Assembly (NCBI GenBank): GCA_964016885.1
Contig: OZ024742.1
Coordinates: 65,844,001 to 65,908,000 of the forward strand
Direction of reading: 5' to 3'
Origin: Eledone cirrhosa
Taxonomy: Eukaryota
Length of the DNA stretch: 64,000 nt
Shown here piece after piece: positions 8,724-63,616 of the stretch. Numbering within the stretch: the first letter of the stretch is position 1; each line of letters starts with the position of its first letter. The translations under genes were made by a program, and so were the position numbers. The notes under the pieces were generated by a model. It made no database searches and was not told where the DNA came from. It worked only from the letters and a program-made list of their open reading frames with translations.

Positions 8724-9052
8724 TTAAGTTATTTTATAGTGAGAGAATTTAGCCTTCGGTTTGTGGTTGCAGTATAATGATCGTTCGATTCTATCATTTA
8801 GTAATTTATTTTTGGAATTTAAGATGTAAAAGAGTTCAAGGTTACATAACCTACAGTACTTCAATCCACTCCGATATGCACTTGCGCTGGAAAGTATATC
8901 CCATTTCAAGGTGAACTGTTGGTTGCGTTCACGGAGTTGCCAGGTCTTGTTGGCGAGCGTCGTCACAAAACGGTGATTAGGATGTTTAATTGAGAATCGA
9001 TGACGATACCAGCGAGATTTAAGGGAGATAGTGGTAAACCCGATGTAATACC
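8724..9052 (-). pseudogene. PLE GIY-YIG endonuclease C-terminal fragment
   Basis: YIGFT..LKSRWYRH..KWDIL..CRLCNLE..LLN..CNH. Confidence 0.8.
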
Positions 9053-9056
9053 ATTC

Positions 9057-9168
9057 TGCTCTGATGATACAGTGGTCACAGCATTTGATAATTGAGTTTT
9101 GCAAATAGTTATAAATTTGCACATAGCATAACTAGGCTGTATAACCACCGTGGAAACATTTGTAAGCA
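9057..9168 (+). ncRNA. Hammerhead ribozyme with large stem II insertion (inverted pLTR copy)
   Basis: UGCU-CUGAUGA-UACAGUGGU...ACCACCGUG-GAAAC(AUUU)GUA-AGCA. Confidence 0.7.
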
Positions 9169-11835: not shown

Positions 11836-12365
11836 TTGCTACTACTTAAGGTCGACTTTTAAATCATTTGGGTTGTTCCATAAATTACATCCTCGTTTTG
11901 TTTCTCATCTATCTAGACTATATTTCAGCCTGTAATCTATGTTTCAATTTTGTTACACCTCATTTCTCCCCCACTCTCTCTCTTTCTCTCTGTGATATTT
12001 GAATCTACAATGATTTGGGCTTACCTTATTCCTATATATATGTTTTTGAATGTCAGTTAGATTCAAACTTACAATGATTGGCATTATATATATAGAATAG
12101 AATGAAACGAAATTTCATTTCTCACTCTTAGTACGGCACTTACTTAAATGTAAGTATGTATACGTACATACATATATGTATACATACGTACAGTAGTATG
12201 TATATATATATACATACATGCACACATATATATATGCACGTATCGGTTTACCGAACATTTATTATAATGCTCGGTTTGTTTGTTTGTAAACAAACAAACA
12301 GCCCGAATTACGCCGTACAGTGTTTAGGCAACCACGTCACTTTTTTGTTCATCACTGACACAGGA

Positions 12366-12408
12366 ACGATGTACTAGTTTCAAGCTTATTAGCTATCGTC
12401 AGCATCGT
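12366..12408 (-). ncRNA. Type I hammerhead ribozyme
   Basis: ACGAUG-CUGACGA-U-AGCU(AAUA)AGCU-U-GAAAC(UA)GUA-CAUCGU. Confidence 0.8.
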
Positions 12409-12817
12409 ATACCTTCCTGTGTCAGTGTTGAACAAAAAGGTGACGTGGTTGTCTAAACACTGTACGGCGTAATTCGGGCTGTTTGTTTGTTTACAAACAA
12501 ACAAACCGAGCATTATAATAAATGTTCGGTAAATCGATACGTGCATATATATATGTGTGCATGTATGTATATATATACATACTACTGTACGTCTCTATAC
12601 ATATATGTATGTACGTATACATACATACATACTTATATTTAAGTAAGTGCCGTCCTAAGAGTGAGAAATGAAATTTCGTTTCATTCTATTCCATTTATCG
12701 TTTTCGGTGTGCCCGACCGACTGAACTCACTCGATATGCAAATTAGGCTGCTCAGCCGTTAATATGCATAAGGAAAGTATATACTTTCAGACGTTCAACT
12801 ATCTGGCAGGAAGGTAT

Positions 12818-12858
12818 ACGATGCTGACGATAGCTAATAAACTTGAAACTAGTACAAT
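12818..12858 (+). ncRNA. Hammerhead ribozyme with damaged 3' stem I
   Basis: ACGAUG-CUGACGA..GAAAC(UA)GUA-CA followed by a deletion. Confidence 0.6.
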
Positions 12859-13683
12859 GGTTGTTAAACACTGTACGGCCTAATACGGGATGTTTGTTTA
12901 CAAACACACCGAGCATTATAATAAATGTTCGGTAAACCGATACGTGCATATATATATATATATGTGTGCATGTATGTATATATATACATACTACTGTAGG
13001 TCTGTATACATATATGTATGTACGTATTGATACATACATACATACTTATATATATATATATTGGAAAATGTGTGAGATCCTTTGTACAGTTAGGTATATT
13101 TGAAAAAAAGGAAAAGAATGACTTCACTAATAATTTGATTTAATTTTATATTATAATATTATGAGTTGGTAGATCTAGTAAGTTCTTTGTTAACTTTGGT
13201 GGGAAGAATTTTAAAGATTCCTGGTTAACTTTGATTGAGAACTTTCTCGCATACGTCGGTGGCGATTGTCAAACTGAGATCAGGTTGTGTTAAGATGTAT
13301 GACTCTATATATAAGAGAGATTTGGATGTGACTGGGGTGTGGGGTGTGGTGTTAACGAGTGTTGATGAAGATTTGGAGTAATTAAAGCATACACACATAC
13401 ACACACACACACATACACTCAGAAAATGGTGAGGTTGCAAGATAAGGGTGTTTGAGAAGGTGGTTGTAAACATCCCCTCCTGCTGGTTTTATTTCATTAG
13501 CTGACCTTTGATGGGTATATAATGGCAGGGTTAGGGTTAGGGTTGTATATATATATATGTATATATGTATATTAATAAAAGGAATTCCAACTTTTTCTGA
13601 TTTACTCATTTTATTTACAATCCTTTAAAATGTATAATGGTATTAGAAATAGTATGGTAGAATATTAAATGTTAAGTGTTAAT

Positions 13684-14789: not shown

Positions 14790-15869
14790 CAAAAGAGTGC
14801 TAACAAGTATGATTTAGAATGTAGCACAATGGAAAGCATCCAGCAGATAGCTAATTCCATACACCAGAGTATAACTGTAACTATCGACTACCCTTCCAAA
14901 CACCCTAACAGTAGACCACCTGTATTAGACACGGAACTCTGGATTAACACTATAGACGAGAGGGCCCAAATTCTCCACTCACACTACGCTAAATCCATGG
15001 CCTCCAAATACCTGATACTCAAAAACCCAGCAATGTCCAGTAGTGCTAAGTTTAATATTCTGATCGCAGACTTGGTACGAGTGATGAAGAGCGTGTCCCG
15101 CATGTGCGACCCAACTGAAATGGAAAGACACATCCAACACTTCCTCAACCGCATGCAGTTCTCTGGCTACAACCAGAGACAGAATCAGAGTATACGAATG
15201 AGCCACGGAGAAGTATAAGACCCTCATAGAACTGGACATGAAAGGAATTTGCCCATTATACAGGAGCAAATCATGGAATAGCTTAGATAGGACTAAACAT
15301 AAGATAGGGAAAACAACCTCATGGTACGACAACCAGAGATTCCAGAGTGTCATGTTCGTGGACGCTACCCCTGGAGGGAAATTATCTAACCAGTGTAGAA
15401 AGGCCCTGAGAAAGACCTACTTAAAGATTAAAGTCGTAGAAAAGCCAAGAACTACCAAAAATTCCTGATCAGCAAAACCCACTGTACTAATAGGAAATGT
15501 ATTATATGTAAAGTAAATCCCCGGATAAACTGTAAAACTAGAAACGTAGTATATAGCATAAGATGTACAGAGGGTACTTGCAGAAACATGACAACAACAT
15601 ACATAGGCGAGACAGCCCGTAGCATAGGTGAAAAGATAGACCAACACTGGGGGGAACTAAAAGAACGAAAAAACGGTTCAGTACTATACGAACACGCAAG
15701 ACAACAACATGACGGTAACATAGACAACATAGAAATTAAAATAATATCTAAACATAGAAATGACCCAGCAGATAGGCAAATCAGAGAAGCAAATGAAATA
15801 GAACTTAGAAGGCCAAAGCTAAACAGAAAAAATGAATGGAATAACAACACCCAAACAAACAATACTTAA
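14790..15869 (+). pseudogene. PLE RT C-terminus plus GIY-YIG endonuclease, disrupted
   Basis: ORFs 14667-15218, 15238-15468 and 15588-15869 are successive pieces. Confidence 0.75.
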
Positions 15870-16097
15870 GAGCAATATAAATAAATAAATACACAAGCAC
15901 AATAACAACAAACACATATAAGCACACACTAGTAAACCAAGATAGAGTACAATAACCAAAACACAGTCACCCAAACACACCAACACTATACACACACGCA
16001 CACGCATGCGCAGAGAAGAAGACAAAAATAAATAAATAAATAAATAAACCGATTAAATAAAGATGGCGTAAATATACAATACAACAGGAGGAACATA

Positions 16098-16151
16098 ATA
16101 GCATCACTGACGATGTTGCAGATGTGCAACGAAAGGACTTTGTTAGACTAT
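16098..16151 (+). ncRNA. Hammerhead ribozyme of PLE pLTR
   Basis: CUGACGA-U-GUUGCA(GAUG)UGCAAC-GAAAG(GA)CUU; stem I degraded. Confidence 0.6.
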
Positions 16152-16184
16152 ATATATATGTTTATATCTATATTATATGTGTAT

Positions 16185-16333
16185 TTTTGACTGTGGTCTG
16201 TCAATGGTAAACATTGAGGACCGAATGAATTAACTGATATAAAAGATACAGAAGTGAAAACTAACCAAACAGTGAGTGTGTTCTGTTATTAATTCTGGCA
16301 ATATTATTACAACAATATGACCCTCCCCAAGTA

Positions 16334-16335
<2 letters not shown>
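16185..16335. mobile_element. Short TA-embedded repeat family (also 34375-34508, 41980-42135)
   Basis: Shared GATATAAAAGA..AAACAGTG.GTGTGTTCTGTTATT..TTCTGGCAATATT..ATATGA.CCTCCC. Confidence 0.65.
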
Positions 16336-16377
<42 letters not shown>

Positions 16378-24226: not shown

Positions 24227-24371
<145 letters not shown>

Positions 24372-24459
24372 AGCATGTATGTAAGTAAGTGCCGTCTTAA
24401 GCGTGAGAAATGAAATTTTGTTTCATTCTATTCCATTTATATATATATATGTATATATT

Positions 24460-25046: not shown

Positions 25047-25584
<538 letters not shown>

Positions 25585-25585
<1 letters not shown>

Positions 25586-25840
25586 TAAGTATGGGTTATA
25601 TCGAACATTAATAATAATGTTCGATTCGTTTTTAAACAAACGGCCTGATTTGCAGCTGTGCCTTATCGGTGACCGATCGTCACCTGTTTGTTCAACACTG
25701 GCTTTGAGGAACAATCAATATGTTTCTGGGTCATTACCCTTCATCAGGACTGTATACCTCTGCCAGTCTGTTGAATGGTTGAAAATATATAATATTTTCT
25801 TAAGCACACATGGGCCGAGTAGCCTAATTTGCATATATGT
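25585..25840 (-). mobile_element. Diverged relative of the 12 kb/41 kb HHR element
   Basis: Shares CGAACATT.ATAATAATG.TCG, TGTTCAACACTG, TATACC..TGCCAG and GCCTAATTTGCATAT. Confidence 0.65.
25711..25753 (-). ncRNA. Hammerhead ribozyme
   Basis: ACAGUC-CUGAUGA-A-GGGU(AAUG)ACCC-A-GAAAC(AU)AUU-GAUUGU. Confidence 0.7.

Positions 25841-37660: not shown

Positions 37661-37667
<7 letters not shown>
37030..37667 (+). mobile_element. PLE 3' fragment, same family as 14775-16151
   Basis: TRNIVYSIRCTEGTCRNMTTTYIGETARRIGERIDQHW; HHR at end. Confidence 0.8.
37614..37667 (+). ncRNA. Hammerhead ribozyme of PLE pLTR
   Basis: AUAG-UACCA-CUGAUGA-U-GUCGCA(GAUA)UGCGAC-GAAAG(AA)CUU-UGGUA-ga-CUAU. Confidence 0.75.
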
Positions 37668-37696
<29 letters not shown>

Positions 37697-37698
<2 letters not shown>

Positions 37699-38945
37699 CT
37701 CCATCCCCCACCCTCCTTCGCCTCGCCGAGCTGGTCCTCACCCTCAACTGTTTCTCCTTCTCGGGACGAGTTTTACCAACAGGTCACGGGCGTAGCCATG
37801 GGTACAAGAATGGGCCCAAACTATGCCAACCTTTTTGTTGGCCATGTTGAGGCCCAAATCTTTGCCCAGTACACCGGCCCCACGCCCGAACTGTACGGTC
37901 GTTACATCGACGACTGGATCGGAGCCACGACCCTCACCCGAGAACAGCTCGACTCCTTTCTCTCCTTCTTCTTCTCCTTCCACGCCTCCCTCCACTTCAC
38001 CACCTCTATCTCCACCACTCACGTCCACTTCTTAGACATCTCCGTCGCCTTCAACCCCTCCCACCGCTCCCTCGTCACCTCCACCTTCTTCAAACCCACC
38101 GACTCCCACTCCTACCTCACACTCTATTCCCTACTCCCAACTCCTCAGGATCCGCCGCCTCTGTAGCCGAGATGCTGACTTTGAGTCCCAGGCCCTTTCC
38201 CTAGTCAGCCATTTCATCCGCAGAGGTTACCCCCCTCCCCCCCTCTCGTCCACACCGCTCTCACCAGCGCCCATGCTATCCACGGCTCCACCACCCTCAC
38301 CCCACGCCACCGCACACCCACCCACCGTCTCCCCTTCCCCATCAACTACCACCCCTCCACCATATCTCTCCACCGCACCATCCTCCGCCTCTTCCTCCGC
38401 CACCAATCCGACCCCTCCACCTCCCACATCTTCCCAGCCCCACCACTCCCCTCCTTCAAACGCGCACGCAATCTCCGCACTCTCCTCGTCCACAGCTCCC
38501 TACCCCCCAACCCACGCTCTCCTTCCCCCCCGGTTCCCTTCCCTGTTCCAGGCCCCGCTGCAACATCTGTCCCCACATCACCAACACCACCACCTTCCAG
38601 GGTCCCAACGGCCACTCTCTCTCTGTCCGGCATGCCTTCCGCTGCACCTCCTACAACCTAGTCTACGGACTTCGCTGCACGGAGTGCATCGCGACCTACG
38701 TCGGACAGATTGGACGTCGCCTGGCGGACAGGTTTACTGAACACCTCCGAGATATTCGTCTCGGTGGTAGTTCCCCCATCGCCCGCCACTTTGGTGCCCC
38801 TGGACATTCCGCACACCCCCTCACAGTCTGTGGCCTACTCCAATGCCACGGAACACCCGCCACTCTCCTCAGGGTCGAACAACGAACCATCTTCCCCCTA
38901 CAGACCCACACTCCCCCCGGCATGAACTCCCCACCCTTATTCCTT
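37697..38945 (+). pseudogene. PLE reverse transcriptase plus GIY-YIG endonuclease, frameshifted
   Basis: RT motifs incl. YIDD in ORF 37798-38166; GIY-YIG pieces at about 38630-38930. Confidence 0.85.
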
Positions 38946-40431
38946 TAGCCTTCGACCGCCCCCTCCCCCCACACATATCCCCCACTAACACACCCCTCCT
39001 TTCACCGCCCACCCCACAACTAACAATACTAACACCTCCACCCCACACCCGACCACCCTTCCTCAACTAACATACTAACATCCCTCCCTTCTTCTCCCCC
39101 TCCTTATCACACGCACACACCCACCGGTACATATATACACGCGCTCACACTAAACACACAACCTACTACCACCACTGACCCTCACCCCCACACATCCACC
39201 CCACCACCCGGCAACTAACATCACTAACACCCCCGACCCCAAGCACACGAACACACACCCACTTACGCCACCCACTCTACACGCAACTAACATCACTAAC
39301 ACCCCCAACCCTACGCACACGAACATACACACCCTCTTACACCACCCACTCTACACACCCTACCACCACTGACCCCCACTCACACCCGCATTCAACCCTT
39401 TCCCCACCTCAGTATACTAACAACCACTAACACCCCCTTCACCACACACACCCTCATCCAAACACGCACACACACACCAGTACACTACACTCTCTGCATC
39501 GGCCCCCACACCCTTCTCTCCCCGCTCCACCCACACCCTTTCTCACACACACACACATCCCACTAACACCTCTACTAATACACCTCCCTCACTCCAACTT
39601 TCACACCTACCCATCCTCTCCCCTGTCCACCGCACCTCCGCACACACTGACACACCGACTTTCTTCACTTACCATTCTACCCGACTGCTGCTATGCCCTT
39701 ATCTCTGACCACCTCCCCGCACACACAGACACACAACCCTCCCCCTGCCTTGACCCTCTGACCACTTCCTGTTGCGCGCGCACCCCACATCTCCCCTCTA
39801 CCGACCAATCTCTTCACGGATTACACATATGTGAACATCGATCCCTAGAATCCACCACATCCCAAGGATATTACTCAGCATTCCACCACATCCTCTACGG
39901 AACTACCTTAAGGACTCACCCACTGACATACACTCCAAAAAAAAATATTCCCCACACGCCACCTACATCCACAACACGCATAAACACCACACACACACGT
40001 GCGTACCACCACATATTTACACACTCAGTCTCCGGAATCCTCTCCCCCCACCCTTCTGACCCCTCCCCAACCGCACACGCACACACACTCCGACCTACAC
40101 CCCACCCCACACACACCTCTTCCTGAACATGCAATCCCGTTCTTCCCCCAACTCTTACTTTCACACACACACACGTACACCTACACACACACACCACCTT
40201 CAGCCCTCCCCGCTCGGACACCCCGCCTCCGTCTCCCCACTCCACCCGCCACCACCCCTACACGCCCTACACCCTTCCACCACCTGTTTTACTTCATGTG
40301 TATTTTTATTTTTATTTTTATCATGTTTTTATATTTAATTCATTTGTACCGTTTCCTCTCACCCCTTTTTTTCTATATGTCTCTCCACCACTCCGCTACA
40401 CACCCTTGGAACTCTCTTCCCACACACTTTT

Positions 40432-40549: not shown

Positions 40550-40583
<34 letters not shown>

Positions 40584-40617
40584 AGATTTGAATGGATACA
40601 GTTTAGTTGAAAGGAAT

Positions 40618-40737
40618 TTATTGACACGTGTTTCTATAACAGTTACATAACCTAAAACAGCTGCTATCTACAAACTTTTAGTTATGCAGACATTCAATAT
40701 TTCAATGTTATTATTTACTGTCATTTCATCAGAATAA
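40618..40737 (-). ncRNA. Hammerhead with very long stem II (inverted copy)
   Basis: Reverse complement of 40813-40932. Confidence 0.7.
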
Positions 40738-40812
40738 TATTACTGAGGACCTATTTAGTTTTTATATTCTCTTTAATATTCTCTATAAAAACTAAATAGG
40801 TCCTCAGTAATA

Positions 40813-40932
40813 TTATTCTGATGAAATGACAGTAAATAATAACATTGAAATATTGAATGTCTGCATAACTAAAAGTTTGTAGATAGCAGCTGTTTTAGGT
40901 TATGTAACTGTTATAGAAACACGTGTCAATAA
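40813..40932 (+). ncRNA. Hammerhead with very long stem II
   Basis: UUAUU-CUGAUGA-A-AUGACAGU...ACUGUUAU-A-GAAAC(ACGU)GUC-AAUAA. Confidence 0.75.
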
Positions 40933-41079
40933 ATTCCTTTCAACTAAACTGTATCCATTCAAATCTTTCTATTTTTCTCCGGATTACTTTTGGAACTACA
41001 ACTGGAACCGTCGAGCAAACTCTACGTGAGCTGATAATCTACTGTGTGTAATATTTATATTACAACACAACGGAAAATA

Positions 41080-41120
<41 letters not shown>

Positions 41121-41325
41121 TATGTATATTTACATACATATATGTATACAGACGTACAGTAGTATGTATATATATATATATACATACATGCACACATATA
41201 TATGTACGTATGGATTTACCGAACATTTATTATAACGCTCGGTGTGTTTGTAAATAAACATCCCGTATTAGGCCGTACAGTGTTTAACAACCATTGTTGC
41301 TCATTTGTTCAACACTGACAAAGGA

Positions 41326-41368
41326 ACGATGTACTAGTTTCAAGCTTATTAGCTATCGTCAGCACCGT
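41326..41368 (-). ncRNA. Type I hammerhead ribozyme
   Basis: ACGGUG-CUGACGA-U-AGCU(AAUA)AGCU-U-GAAAC(UA)GUA-CAUCGU. Confidence 0.8.
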
Positions 41369-41643
41369 ATACCTTCCTGCCAGATGATTGAACGTCTGAA
41401 AGTATCTACTTTCCTTATGCATATTAACGGCTGAGCAGCCTAATTTGCATATCAAGTGAGTTAATCGGTCGGGCGCACCGAAAACGATAAACGAAATGAA
41501 ATTTCGTTTCATTCTCTCCGTTTATCGTTTTCGGTGCGCCCGGCCGATTAACTCACTCGATATGCAAATTAGGCTGCTCAGCCGTTAATATGCATAAGGA
41601 AAGTATAAACTTTCAGACGTTCAATCATCTGGCAGGAAGGTTT

Positions 41644-41686
41644 ACGGTGCTGACGATAGCTAATAAGCCTGAAACTAGTACATCGT
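41644..41686 (+). ncRNA. Type I hammerhead ribozyme
   Basis: ACGGUG-CUGACGA-UA-GCU(AAUA)AGC-CU-GAAAC(UA)GUA-CAUCGU. Confidence 0.75.
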
Positions 41687-41910
41687 CCCACTGTACGGCT
41701 TTAATTCGGGATGTTTGTTTACAAACACACCGAGCATTATAATAAATGTTCGGTAAATCCATACGTACATATATGTATGTGTGCATGTATGTATATATAT
41801 ATACATACTACTGTACGTCTGTATACATATATGTATGTACGTATACATACTTATATTTAAGTAACAGCTGTACTAAGAGTGAGAAATGAAATTTCGTTTC
41901 ATTTTTTCCG

Positions 41911-41975
<65 letters not shown>

Positions 41976-47619: not shown

Positions 47620-48313
47620 AAGTGGTTACACAAAATTAGTTCACCATACCGAGAACAGTTGTTTCACCTTAGCGGATCCTCAGCTCGTAATGGACATGGT
47701 TATACGGAACAGGTAGGACAACCGTACGAACACGCATGCGCAGAAACGATTACTTCCCACAGGCAATATTAAATTGCGTGCGAGAGGTGTAAGGGTGATA
47801 ACTGCGAAAGTCCGAAAGTTTATAGTTGATAAGAAAATGAGGATGTTGTTGCAATTCAATCCGGAGCTTTGTAGTTATATAAGAGGTGTTTCGAGACGTG
47901 TGGACAAATTGTGAATAATTCATTCCTTGAGTTTAGGCAATCACTATTGCGTAATCTCTTTAGAATTTTTATTCGTTCATCAATATTTAGTCCACACGAC
48001 GAATTGCCCCTTGCGTATGGCTTGGACTTAGTGATGGCTTTCCATTGAATGGAGTAGTCTATACTTGAGTCCTTGAGGGACCATACGTGGATGAACGTCT
48101 GTCCGGGTAAATAAAGGTCGACTCGTGGTTCAGCAAGCGTTCCTCAAATCGGCTCTCCGCCATACCCACATAGGATTTGACCTCCTGTGGTTGATTTGGT
48201 GGGTTGGAAGTGACCGCAGCTTCATAAATTACAACGAGTGTGTTGCATTGCTGTTGAAGAGGACAAGTTTCGGGCTTACGGCAAGAGCACCCTGGTGGGG
48301 TGCTCTTGCGGTA
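47620..48313 (-). mobile_element. PLE 3' fragment (GIY-YIG plus HHR)
   Basis: [52 protein letters not shown]; HHR downstream on the same strand. Confidence 0.8.
47644..47693 (-). ncRNA. Hammerhead ribozyme
   Basis: CCAU-ua-CGAG-CUGAGGA-U-CC(GCUAA)GG-U-GAAAC(AACU)GUU-CUCG-gu-AUGG. Confidence 0.7.
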
Positions 48314-48314
48314 G

Positions 48315-48350
<36 letters not shown>

Positions 48351-48355
48351 CACAA

Positions 48356-48435
<80 letters not shown>

Positions 48436-48534
48436 ATATATATATATAAATATATATATATAAAGAAAAAAAGATGAAATCGAAAATGCAACTGGAGTCT
48501 TATTTTTTTTTTTAAATATATATTTATTTGGTTC

Positions 48535-59327: not shown

Positions 59328-59657
59328 ACTTGCTTCTACTTTAGGCACAAGGCCTGCAATTACCCTAATGCATTACTGGCGCTGTATTTGCTCGACTCCA
59401 TAAGGATGAAAGGCAAAGCTAACCTCAGCGGGGTTTGAACTCAGAACGTAAAGGGCCGTAATAATAATAATAATTGTTTCTAGTTTAGGCACAAGGCCAG
59501 CAATTTTGGGGGAGGAGAAAGTCAATTAAACCGAACCTAGTGCATTACTGGTGCTTTATTTCATCGACCCCGTAAGGATGAAAGTCAAAGTTAACCTCGG
59601 CGGGATTTGAACTCAAAGCATTGTCTGACGCTCTACAGATACTGCCAACCCACCGCC
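59328..59657 (-). mobile_element. Two tandem SINE family A copies
   Basis: 59328-59460 and 59472-59657 separated by (AAT)n. Confidence 0.85.
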
Positions 59658-59660
59658 CTC

Positions 59661-59713
<53 letters not shown>

Positions 59714-59714
<1 letters not shown>

Positions 59715-60570
59715 CTTTCTTTATTAACCACAAGGGTTTACATAAAGTAGACATTAAGGACAGTACAGGACAATACAGGACGGTACAAATGGGCATTTCT
59801 GCGTGTAAAAAAAAACAAAAACAGAGGATGTAACAACAAAATAACAATGAAGAATTCCCCAATAGGGGGGAGACTTCCGAGGGACATTTGTGGAGAAAGC
59901 CCAGTAAAAGGACACAGTGACCCTGACCACCAGGGCAAGTGCCCTCTCCCAGTTTTTCACCTTTAATTTACAGACACATACTCAGTGTAGGCCCATTCAC
60001 TCGGGCCATACTTGCTTCTCTCACCCATCTTTCAACAAAATGAGAGCACTTCCCTCTCTACCCTGATTTTCCTTTTCAAATGAAATTTGAAAAAGTTAAT
60101 CAGGGCATCACCGAAGAGGTAAGTGCTCGTCTTCAGCCCTTTCAAACGCGTCCACCATACTATCTCTTTCGCCATGGCCACCAGACAGATAAAAACTACC
60201 TGCCCTTCCCGGCTAAAGGAAGAGAGCGGGGCAATCCTCACGATGGACTCAGCTGATAGCCGGATCCCTCCTACACGCGACAGCAGGTGTTCGACATAAA
60301 CCCACAAGTCAGGAATTCTCGGACACTGGACTAGTGGGTGCAGGACGGTTTCGTCGCCCCGCGCGCATCTCGGACATGGCCGGCTGACGGCACTTCCACG
60401 CCTGTAGAGTTTATCCCGAATTGGCAAAGCTCCTCGGTAGCACTGCCAAGCCAGGAATTTCTGGAAGTTGTCCATAGGCCTTGGCCCGAAAGTTCTTTCG
60501 AAGAGATTGGCTAGTTGATTTTCGTCGACACCAGAGTTTCCCCATGTACGTCGTCGCTCTTCCTATCCAC
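59714..60570 (-). mobile_element. Tx1/L1-like LINE 3' fragment (zf-RVT)
   Basis: LAWQCYRGALPIRDKL..CPRC..ETVLHPLVQC; AATAAA at 3' end; (TAA)n both sides. Confidence 0.8.
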
Positions 60571-60665
<95 letters not shown>

Positions 60666-60681
60666 TTAATAATAATAATTA

Positions 60682-61698
60682 TAATCAAGCACTCGACAAT
60701 GAGGGAAAGGATAAGGAAGGAATGTTACCGCAGAGTAAGAGCAATCTTAAGAACGGAATTCAATGCAAGGAATAGGATCGATGCCATAAACACGCTTGCC
60801 ATATCAGTAGTAACCTAGTTACAATGTCATCAACTGGTGAAGCACAGAGATCCGTAGGCTCGATACAAAAATTCGAAAATTCTTAACCATGCATAGAATG
60901 CATCACCCTAAGGCAGATACAGATAGAATATATCTCCCTAGGAAAGAAGGAGGACGTGGGTTAATCCAGTTAGACATTGCGTTGAAAACTGCAACAATTG
61001 GATTATCTACATATCTAAGGGAATCACATGATTGGATGATCAAACTCGTTTTGAAACACGAAAGCATCAAAAGATCATACTCCATTACAAAAGATGCACA
61101 AAGATACAGTAATGGACTATAAATTTCAGAAGTCCCATTTACTGCTGAAATGGAAAACACAGAAAAAGCAAAGCAGGTAAAAGTAACTGCAAAGAAAGAA
61201 CTGCTACAGAAACTGGCTAAGAAATGGCAAGAAAAGCCTCTGTATGGAAAATACCCAGAACGAGCTAACAATCCTGATGTTGACAAAACTTTAACCCATC
61301 AGTGGTTGGCATCCTCTGGACTGAAATCGGAGACTGAAGGACTGATTATATCATCACAAGATCAGTGTCTGCCAACCAAAAATTACCAAGCCAACATAAT
61401 AAAAAATGGATGCAGCCCATTATGCCGTGTATGTAAAAAACAACCAGAAACCATTGACCATATAATTCCAATGTGCAGTCCTATAACTCCAACCGAATAC
61501 CTAAACAGGCATGACAGAGCTGCCCATATACTAAGGAAGATTCTGTCAATATAAGTACATCACAAGTCTAAACACCTAAAGATGCATGTATGAGTATGTA
61601 TGTTATTTCTTGAACATGGCCGACCTTGTTGTCTCTTGAGGTCACTGGTTGTGACTTGGTGATAACTCGTATGAACATAAAACAAGATAAATGCAGCT

Positions 61699-61700
<2 letters not shown>
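60682..61700 (+). mobile_element. R4/Dong-like LINE fragment (RT C-terminus plus CCHC)
   Basis: HHPKADTDRIYLPRKEGGRGL, LKSETEGLI..QDQ.L, CRVC..ETIDHII..C, RHD. Confidence 0.75.
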
Positions 61701-61775
<75 letters not shown>

Positions 61776-61776
<1 letters not shown>

Positions 61777-62677
61777 CTTTCTTTATTAACCACAAGGGTT
61801 TACACAAAGTAAGACATTAAGGACAGTACATGACAATACAGGACAATACAGGACGGTACAAATGGGCATTTCTGCGTGTAAAAAAAACAAAAACAGAGGA
61901 TGTAAAAAGAAAAGAAACAATGAAAAATTCCCCAATAGGGGGGGGGGGGGGGGAGACCTCCGAGGGCCATCGTGGAGAAAGCCCATTAAAAATGCCATGG
62001 TGACCCTGACCATCAGGGCAAGTGCCCTCTCCCAGTTTTCCACCTTCAATTTATAGGCACATACTCAGAGTAGGCCCATTCACACGGGCCATTCTTGCGT
62101 CTCTCACCCATCTTTCAACAAAATGCTGGGAAGAGAGCACCTCCCTCTCTACCCCGATTGTCCTTTTTAAATGAAATTTGAAAAAGTTAATCAGGGCATC
62201 ACCGAAGAGGAAAGTGCTCGTCTTCAGCCCTTTCAAACGCGTCCACCATACTATCTCTTTCACCATGGTCACCAGACAGATAAAAATTGCCTGCCCTTCC
62301 CGGCTAAAGGGAGAGGGCAGAGCAATCCTCACGATGGACTCAGCTGATAGCCAGATCCGTTCTACACGTGACAGCAGGTGTTCGACATAAACCCATAAGT
62401 CAGCAATGCTCGAACACTGGACGAGTGCGTGCAGGACGGTTTCGTCGCCCTGCGCGAATCTCGGACATGCCCGGCTGACGGCACCTTCATGCCTGTAGAG
62501 TTTAACCCGAACTGGTAAAGATCCTCGGTAGCACTGCCAGGCCAGGGATTTCTGGAAGTTGTCCATAGGCCCGGCCCGAAAGTTCTTCCGAAGCTAGTTG
62601 ATTTTCGTCGTTGATTTTCGTTGATTTTCGTCGACGCCTAGATTTTCCCCAAGTACGTCATCGCTCTTCCCCTCCAC
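61776..62677 (-). mobile_element. Tx1/L1-like LINE 3' fragment, second copy
   Basis: ORF 62051-62566 homologous to 60032-60475. Confidence 0.8.
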
Positions 62678-62740
<63 letters not shown>

Positions 62741-62743
<3 letters not shown>

Positions 62744-63616
62744 GGAGCCAATGCTCAGAACTGTACTGAAGGAGGGGACAATAGGCCAGGGGATGTCCAA
62801 GGAGGAAATAACATCAAGGAGAAAGAGCAGCCTTCAGGAAAAATCCCTTCTTTGAGAAAACTGAATTTAGAGATCCACAGACATGGAACTGGTTGAAAAG
62901 AGGAGACCTTAAAAAGGCTACAGAAGGAATGTTAATGGCTGCGCAGGAGCAGGCCCTCAAAACGAAGAGGTTGAAACACCACATTTACAAGGAGGAGGCT
63001 AGCCCACTGTGCAGGATCTGTGGAGAGAGAGAGGAGACTGTGGCTCACATTGTATCCGAGTGTAAACACCTAGCCCAGACTCACTATAAGGGCTGGAGAC
63101 ATGATGTGATGGGCAGGGTGATCCACTGGCACCTATGCAAAGTAAACAATTTACCACATTCTGAAAACGATCAGGTGAAGATGCTGTGGGATTTTAGGAT
63201 ACAGACGGACAAGAAACTGGAACACAATAGACCTGACCTGGTGGTTTTGGACAAAGAAAAAAGATCGTGCCTGATTGTGGATGTGGCCTGCCCATTCGAC
63301 ACGAGAGTGCAAGAGAAGGAGAGGGAGAAAATTAACCGATACCAGGACTTAAAGTGGGAGGTAAAAAGGATTTGGAACTGCCATGAAGTCAAAGGTGATC
63401 CCGATTGTCATAGGCGCACTAGGGACTATCTCAAAAAGTTTCCAGGGATGGTTAAAGAAAATTGGCCCCTTCACGCTTTTTGGAACGCTTCAAAAGGCAT
63501 ACTTGCTGGGAACAGCAAGAACCCTCCGATACGTCCTGAATATCTGAGGCTGCAGGTAGTGGCTTGATATTCATTTCAACAAACTTTCCAGTTAACTAAC
63601 ATCAATAACTGAGACT
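62741..63616 (+). mobile_element. R4/Dong-like LINE 3' fragment with restriction-like endonuclease
   Basis: TEGMLMAAQEQAL, CRIC..ETVAHIVSEC, RHD, LWDF.IQTD..HNRPDLVV..IVDVACP.D..K..Y. Confidence 0.85.

What the first reader, a model, noticed from the sequence alone, without database searches (positions are those of the whole stretch)
12096..13045. Head-to-tail ~400-440 nt non-coding HHR unit: candidate non-LTR retrozyme / circular RNA
Seen: the unit end (..GAAATGAAATTTCGTTTCATTCT.TTCC) is joined directly to the unit start (TTTATCGTTTTCGGTG) at about 12690 and again at about 41520. There is one HHR per unit and no ORF. The plus-strand segment begins at about 12415, just 3' of where the previous HHR would cut, and reaches the next cleavage site at 12854. 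The unit also contains an ATGCAAAT octamer and self-complementary blocks. Inference: tandem transcription and HHR cleavage would release a monomer that can circularise, as known for animal retrozymes.
Basis: partly seen in the sequence, partly recalled or inferred. Interest (0 to 1): 0.75.

Follow-up and report, generated by a model that had tools for sequence, protein, structure and literature searches.

The report
Decayed hammerhead retrozyme, Penelope-style insertion
This is one broken, back-to-back copy of a roughly 440-base non-coding repeat with a predicted self-cutting RNA (hammerhead) that occurs over 30,000 times in this animal genome and was likely pasted into TA repeats by a Penelope-type jumping-gene enzyme, possibly from a small RNA circle that has not been observed.

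Summary
Real, and a new member of a known kind: an animal non-LTR retrozyme family. The unit is 420-500 nt, non-coding, with one type I hammerhead (HHR); at least 30,376 copies, dispersed and in head-to-tail arrays up to about 49 units. The HHR fold covaries across related families (7 of 12 pairs). Its only intact HHR is on the minus strand; the plus-strand HHR at 12854 has lost stem I through a lesion unique to this locus, so this copy would not release a monomer. Family-wide, insertions carry the Penelope-like (PLE) footprint: TA targets, 5' truncation, an inverted arm in 51 of 88 loci, and two fixed 3' ends 56 nt apart, one per arm in 29 of 32 scoreable pairs. No sampled copy is the terminal repeat of a coding PLE. 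Copying reads through the cut site, but circle versus uncut multimer is unresolved, and no RNA data were found. The scan noted this same footprint before on other DNA.

The parts
12085..12094 (.). (TA)n target remnant at the left end
   Evidence: sequence
12095..12419 (-). Inverted arm: unit positions 110-444, 5'-truncated, ending at the long 3' end (unit position about 444)
   Evidence: 95.5% to natural unit L008
12366..12408 (-). Intact type I HHR: stem I ACGAUG/CAUCGU, CUGACGA, U.U then 4-bp stem II, GAAA, 1-bp stem III closed by palindromic CUAG, GUA triplet; predicted cut between 12372 and 12371
   Evidence: cutting not tested
12414..12419 (.). Inversion joint; 6-nt overlap formed by the two complementary strands of extended stem I
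12414..12697 (+). First plus-strand unit, positions 163-444 (starts 5 nt 3' of the HHR cut position; holds the AT/AC-rich hairpins and the unit-end hairpin)
   Evidence: 95.5% to L008
12698..13048 (+). Second plus-strand unit, positions 1-388 with an internal loss after the HHR; ends at the short 3' end; the part after 12854 resembles the 41-kb subfamily
12736..12743 (+). Octamer ATGCAAAT, intact in 204 of 239 unit copies scored and kept in families 60-70% identical; candidate promoter element (inferred)
12818..12854 (+). Broken HHR: core present, 3' strand of stem I missing, one stem II mismatch
13047..13061 (.). (TA)n target remnant at the right end
41111..41912 (.). Second insertion of the family: minus arm 41111-41487 (short end, intact HHR at 41362) and plus arm 41493-41912 (long end, HHR at 41650 followed by an internal deletion)
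25481..25837 (-). Older relative (about 70% identical) with different stem I and II sequences that still pair
24289..24439 (+). Fragment of an older copy (unit 3' part)

Best explanation
This is a decayed, back-to-back insertion of an abundant non-coding repeat with a predicted type I hammerhead (an animal non-LTR retrozyme), likely pasted into a TA repeat by the enzyme of a Penelope-like element (PLE), likely from a circular unit-length RNA. Steps: (1) shown: tandem arrays with intact HHR motifs exist; (2) inferred: they are transcribed, perhaps from an internal octamer-containing promoter; (3) predicted: neighbouring HHRs pair through the palindromic CUAG loop, cut, and the monomer is ligated, as measured for axolotl and mussel retrozymes; (4) inferred: a PLE RT/GIY-YIG protein cuts (TA)n and both DNA ends prime, one at unit position about 388 and one at about 444; (5) shown as a footprint: each cDNA runs across the HHR junction and often past one unit length, stops at a variable point, and the two 5'-truncated arms are joined; (6) shown: some arrays later grow by DNA-level duplication and decay. 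This locus itself is predicted to be inactive.
For: Copy number and dispersal: 30,376 exact 20-mers, control 0; 42 of the first 100 lie in head-to-tail runs of 2-7. PLE footprint: inverted arm in 51 of 88 loci; ends mixed 388/444 in 29 of 32 scoreable pairs, p 2.6e-6 (19 of 51 unscoreable); single arms 17/17/2 other; TA within 25 nt of 169 of 231 3' boundaries; the same two ends in a 60%-identical sister family, mixed in 8 of 8 scoreable of 14 insertions. This matches the PLE 'tail on one end' and inverted 5'-truncated copy (Craig 2021) and the two RT start sites of the anole PLE (Frangieh 2024). HHR fold kept across lineages: 7 of 12 pairs change on both sides, 0-1 of 500 shuffles reach it (7 rows); core mutants at C3 are 396 against 12,932 intact, mostly scattered. 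Read-through: 5' breaks at the cut site 706 of 30,376 (2.3%) against 395 of 13,211 (3.0%) at a control place, so a cut linear monomer was not the usual template. Units of one young insertion differ by 0-3 substitutions (7 of 8 arrays) against 3-20 between insertions, and private variants are shared with the inverted arm in L147 and L169. The circular monomer folds with the HHR across the joint in subfamilies a and b and in the sister family.
Against: Nothing here shows RNA, cutting or a circle. In vitro the anole PLE uses uncut RNA and does not need HHR cutting, which predicts the same read-through. Shared variants are not specific to a circle: dimer-period arrays (L194, L199), three tandem units sharing a dead core (L195) and a 49-unit array with a 9-unit higher-order period and mostly dead cores show DNA-level duplication; both arms share a dead-core change in L196 and L197 (picked for that), which fits uncut templates or arm-to-arm conversion. 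No whole-turn length peak specific to each start site (13 own/3 other of 54; 5 own/6 other of 52). Some insertions join different subfamilies (this locus, L018, L041, L104), so more than one RNA can be used. Stem III is 1 bp, stem II opens with U.U and the triplet is GUA, so monomeric cutting is expected to be weak. In the MFE circles of 2 of 6 subfamily-a monomers and of the subfamily-c monomer stem I is not fully formed. The partner PLE is not identified.
Confidence: 0.55

Rival explanations
1. Same family and same PLE machinery, but the template is an uncut multi-unit (or read-through) transcript, with template jumps; arrays are rebuilt by DNA-level duplication, and circles, if made, are by-products.
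For: Unprocessed RNA is the main substrate of the anole PLE in vitro; no pile-up of ends at the cut site; dead-core variants shared within insertions and DNA-level array growth; no whole-turn peak; 8 of 9 Xenopus dimers showed no cleavage in vitro.
Against: HHR stems covary across diverged mobile lineages; no amplified dead-core subfamily, and the dead 49-mer has left no visible dispersed brood among the first 100 of 396 C3 mutants listed; the long stem I that closes the circle is kept with changed sequence. PLEs also conserve HHRs, so this is not decisive.
Confidence: 0.3
2. The copies are only the terminal repeats (pLTRs) of a coding PLE, left by 5' truncation.
For: The architecture is that of PLE insertions; PLE coding fragments lie within 4 kb of 22 of 60 loci.
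Against: Upstream of a unit lies another unit, an inverted arm or unrelated flank: end-to-start junction in 54 of 88 loci. Of 50 non-TA 5' boundaries 2 run into PLE coding sequence, both in the opposite orientation: L033 is a nested insertion with a 9-bp duplication, L112 a divergent joint. The test used only 7 PLE fragments from the window as queries and about 150 loci of many thousands, so a rare coding carrier is not excluded.
Confidence: 0.08
3. A satellite or fold-back DNA element spread by DNA-level mechanisms; the HHR is a relic.
For: Long arrays with higher-order repeats and dead cores exist; palindromic layout.
Against: Most loci are dispersed short insertions with variable 5' and fixed 3' ends on (TA)n, and the arms are unequal; covariation of the RNA fold.
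Confidence: 0.05

Closest known systems
Animal non-LTR retrozymes (Cervera and de la Pena 2020, PMC7229834; Li, Clavereau and Pollet 2026, bioRxiv 10.64898/2026.07.22.740005)
   Same: Non-coding tandem units of a few hundred nt, one type I HHR each, low GC (36-37%), highly self-paired predicted circle, PLEs in the same genome. The 1-bp helix III with palindromic tetraloop matches axolotl HHR_Amex1 and the U.U at the base of helix II matches HHR_Amex2.
   Different: Slightly longer than the 170-400 nt circles cloned there; expression and circles untested here; inverted arms, two fixed 3' ends and a (TA)n target are not described in the parts of those papers I read; no homologous PLE pLTR found here, whereas 24 of 57 Xenopus families match known elements.
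Endonuclease-bearing Penelope-like elements (Craig et al. 2021, bioRxiv 10.1101/2021.04.23.441226; Frangieh et al. 2024, PMC11167929)
   Same: Partial tandems, 5' truncation, inverted 5'-truncated copy, a 'tail' at one end only, AT-rich or (TA)n targets, two internal RT start sites, HHR in the repeat.
   Different: No ORF; tail 55-58 nt (about 70 in the sister family) rather than 30-40; 3' ends share a few bases with the TA target, whereas the anole PLE starts at a site not homologous to the cut DNA; HHR has a long stem I rather than the minimal PLE form.
Newt satellite 2
   Same: Tandem HHR repeat with weak helix III that cuts as a dimer; reported internal snRNA-type promoter (passage in PMC2220036).
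   Different: No sequence comparison was made; that its promoter includes an octamer is recalled, the primary paper was not held.

Membership tests
Non-LTR retrozyme | Type I HHR motif in each unit | tested here: met
   Rfam gathering score not reached; plus-strand copy at this locus broken
Non-LTR retrozyme | Head-to-tail repeats of about 150-450 (up to 970) nt with at least two consecutive intact HHRs | tested here: met
   Met by the family: L008, L169, L174, L181. Not met at the finding's own locus
Non-LTR retrozyme | No protein coding, no LTR/PBS/PPT layout | tested here: met
   No ORF of 100 aa or more at the locus; in a circular young monomer longest ATG frame 48 aa sense, 112 aa antisense; no LTR layout seen; PBS/PPT not searched separately
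Non-LTR retrozyme | Stable self-paired circular fold that allows the HHR | tested here: met
   z -3.6 to -7.2 on 6 monomers; stem I fully formed in 4 of 6; prediction only
Non-LTR retrozyme | Target-site duplication larger than 4 bp when present | tested here: inconclusive
   10 of 85 against control 11 of 85; one clear 9-bp case, L033
Non-LTR retrozyme | Self-cleavage, and expression as linear and circular monomers | not testable with these tools
   No RNA holder listed; runs laid are contigs of unknown kind
Autonomous PLE | RT plus GIY-YIG ORF between pLTRs | tested here: not met
PLE-mobilised element | Partial tandem, inverted 5'-truncated copy, tail at one end, microsatellite target | tested here: met
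   against descriptions
PLE-mobilised element | Sequence homology to the pLTR of a named autonomous partner | tested here: inconclusive
   Profile search of 1.17 Mb held DNA found only further non-coding relatives; genome not searched exhaustively

The most novel reading that the evidence does not exclude
A PLE protein dimer captures one ligated 440-nt hammerhead circle, primes from both ends of the cut TA repeat at two fixed sites 56 nt apart and copies round the circle from each. Tens of thousands of insertions would then be a fossil record of rolling-circle reverse transcription, explain why the PLE 'tail' sits on one end only, and give a minimal ORF-free RNA substrate for PLE integration.
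Probability: 0.35. Interest if true: 0.72.

Novelty: new member of a known kind. Interest (0 to 1): 0.5.

Why it matters
Retrozyme papers propose, without direct evidence, that PLE enzymes mobilise animal retrozymes through circular RNA. This family shows the PLE integration footprint on an ORF-free HHR repeat at very high copy number, with near-identical young copies. That gives ready substrates to test three open points: whether HHR cutting and circles are needed, which PLE is the partner, and why PLE insertions carry a tail at one end. The single locus is ordinary decayed repeat DNA.

Tried and rejected
Rfam scan: no hit. The repeat finder was swamped by microsatellites. Expression: no RNA holder listed; five runs of unknown kind hold the sequence as contigs; four were laid and say nothing on RNA. 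Pile-up of 5' ends at the HHR cut: not found. Excess of copies ending at the cut: 36 against 23 control; 11 of 20 inspected were double substitutions, 1 of 20 ended on (TA)n, so the joint at 12854 cannot be read as a fossil of cutting. Whole-turn length peak: not specific to the start site (one search timed out). TSD search: at control level. Tandem-HHR count (10 of 88 with two or more) undercounts because it needs a perfect core. First structure count was mis-registered and is discarded; one search replaces it and shows only one pair changed on both sides among close subfamilies. L033 looked like a chimera with a PLE but is a nested insertion. Pfam did not confirm the GIY-YIG fragments used as queries (weak RVT_1 only); that label is from recalled motifs. 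Literature searches found no description of this family or of the one-arm-per-start-site pattern in a retrozyme; the library lacks most subscription papers and Repbase, and the supplement of PMC7229834 could not be read, so prior description is not excluded.

Full report
Observation. The window comes from a 3.0-Gb genome. At 12085-13061 the sequence is a fold-back: 12088-12698 aligns with its own reverse complement at 89%. Against a natural 444-nt unit (L008), the minus strand holds positions 110-444 (12419 to about 12089) and the plus strand holds 163-444 (12414-12697) followed directly by 1-388 (12698-13048); both outer ends run into (TA)n. The only intact HHR is on the minus strand (12408-12366). 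The plus-strand HHR (core at 12824, GTA ending 12854) lacks the 3' strand of stem I and does not fold; its joint is unique in the genome. So this locus would not release a monomer. The 41-kb locus is also a fold-back, with only about 30 nt of tandem overlap.

The family. The 42-nt HHR core occurs 1,686 times exactly, a 19-nt core 13,211 times and a 20-nt stretch just 3' of the cut 30,376 times; reversed controls give 0. Of the first 100 places, 42 lie in same-strand runs of 2-7 units at 400-560 nt spacing. One array reaches about 49 units. At least three subfamilies (84-87% identical to each other as sampled), an older relative at 25.5-25.8 kb (70%) and a young 466-nt sister family (60%) were found. 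The youngest copies are near-identical.

The ribozyme. Type I, with a 6-bp stem I extended by three further helices, CUGA(C/U)GA, U.U plus a 4-bp stem II, GAAA, and a single A-U pair closed by the palindromic loop CUAG, then GUA. Among close subfamilies only one pair changes on both sides (A-U, G-U, U-G). Across five lineages plus the two HHRs of this locus, 7 of 12 pairs change on both sides and the core is invariant; 0-1 of 500 shuffles reach this, and slid controls fall to 21-44% paired (seven related rows, structure drawn from these sequences). C3 mutants are 396 against 12,932 intact. A 1-bp helix III with a palindromic loop is the amphibian form that cuts poorly alone and well as a dimer (PMC7229834). 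Cutting was not tested.

Insertion footprint. I mapped loci for 97 of the 100 places listed, as 90 stretches, and dropped 2 duplicates, leaving 88; they are biased to intact subfamily-a cores. 51 of 88 have a divergent inverted arm, 54 of 88 hold the end-to-start junction, and 3' ends fall at two sites, about 388 and 444, both ending CATTTA before (TA)n. In 29 of 32 scoreable inverted pairs one arm ends at each site (p 2.6e-6; 19 pairs had one end elsewhere). The finding's locus follows the rule. The sister family does too, 8 of 8 scoreable among 14 insertions, chosen as best matches. TA lies within 25 nt of 169 of 231 3' boundaries and 33 of 83 5' boundaries. Partial tandems, an inverted 5'-truncated copy and a tail at one end are the described structure of PLE insertions (Craig 2021), and the tail is the stretch between two RT start sites (Frangieh 2024). 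PLE mobilisation is therefore inferred with high confidence (about 0.85).

Not a pLTR remnant, as far as sampled. PLE fragments are common nearby (22 of 60 loci within 4 kb), but of 50 non-TA 5' boundaries only 2 enter PLE coding sequence, both in opposite orientation: L033 is nested with a 9-bp duplication, L112 is a divergent joint to a 5'-truncated PLE of the family at window 14.8-16.3 kb, a single hint at a partner. A rare coding carrier among many thousands of loci is not excluded.

Template. If cut linear monomers were the template, 5' ends should pile up at the cut. They do not: 2.3% against 3.0% at a control place, and breaks just 3' of GUA are rare (36 against 23). So copying reads through the junction: circle or uncut multimer. 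For a circle: units within an insertion belong to one subfamily (5.8% tandem and 13.4% inverted mismatch at diagnostic sites against 29.6% between loci), young arrays are near-identical, and private variants are shared by all scored units in 3 of 5 multi-unit young insertions, inverted arm included in two; the closing stem is conserved. Against: DNA-level duplication gives the same sharing and is visible (L194, L195, L199, the 49-mer); both arms can share a dead core (L196, L197); no whole-turn peak; the anole PLE prefers uncut RNA. I put the circle at 0.55 and the uncut multimer at 0.3.

Comparison and novelty. The family meets the sequence-level definition of animal non-LTR retrozymes; expression, cutting and circles are untestable here. 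Those papers name PLEs as the likely partner from co-occurrence and pLTR homology. My searches found neither this family nor the one-arm-per-start-site pattern for a retrozyme; supplements I could not see may bear on this. Papers seen: 10.64898/2026.07.22.740005 parts 1-3 of 5; PMC7229834 parts 2-4 of 6; PMC11167929 parts 1-2 of 4; 10.1101/2021.04.23.441226, PMC6962438 and PMC2220036 passages only; others as search listings. Earlier scan notes report the same footprint for other repeat families in this and other genomes (127 notes hold the search words); none matched this sequence. They agree with a reading I had stated before seeing them and are not independent evidence.

Verdict. Real feature; new member of a known kind; this locus is a dead copy; the family is a good test bed for how PLE enzymes copy hammerhead repeats. 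Interest 0.5.

Noticed in passing
G000:C1 about 70,055,700-70,077,100 (L122, L121, L079): Array of about 49 units with a 9-unit (3,964-nt) higher-order period; nearly all HHR cores listed are mutated (C3A, G12C), plus one inverted terminal arm.
   Followed up: partly
L199:4218-4701, L201-L220: Young sister family, 466 nt, 60% identical, GUC triplet and fully paired stem II, same octamer and two fixed ends; 916 candidates in the first look; 9-unit array on C3 near 130.91 Mb. Probably the best substrate for cleavage tests.
   Followed up: partly
window 1763/1848, 9448, 13717/13959, 29102/30333, 37623, 47216/47414: Other type I HHR families, mostly as inverted pairs in fold-back insertions; the 13.7-14.0 kb family has the same U.U and palindromic-loop design (GUAC).
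   Followed up: no
window 8724-9131, 14790-16340, 37663-38948, 48059-48499: Broken RT and GIY-YIG-like coding fragments of several PLE families (labels from recalled motifs; Pfam gave only a weak RVT_1).
   Followed up: partly
L112:3782-5560: Unit arm joined back to back with a 5'-truncated coding PLE; possible joint insertion and hint at the partner.
   Followed up: partly
window 40575-40975: Near-perfect 189-bp-arm palindrome of another family, no standard HHR found by my motif scan.
   Followed up: no
L194, L199: Arrays with alternating two-unit pattern: dimer-period duplication or a dimeric template.
   Followed up: partly
unit positions about 420-444 and 1-10: 5' ends appear enriched near the unit-end hairpin for both start classes (19 of 155 arms against 14 near position 388); could mark a transcript start or a protein-bound block.
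   Followed up: partly
window 59600-63600: (AAT)n-associated repeats with zf-RVT-bearing fragments of a non-LTR retrotransposon.
   Followed up: no
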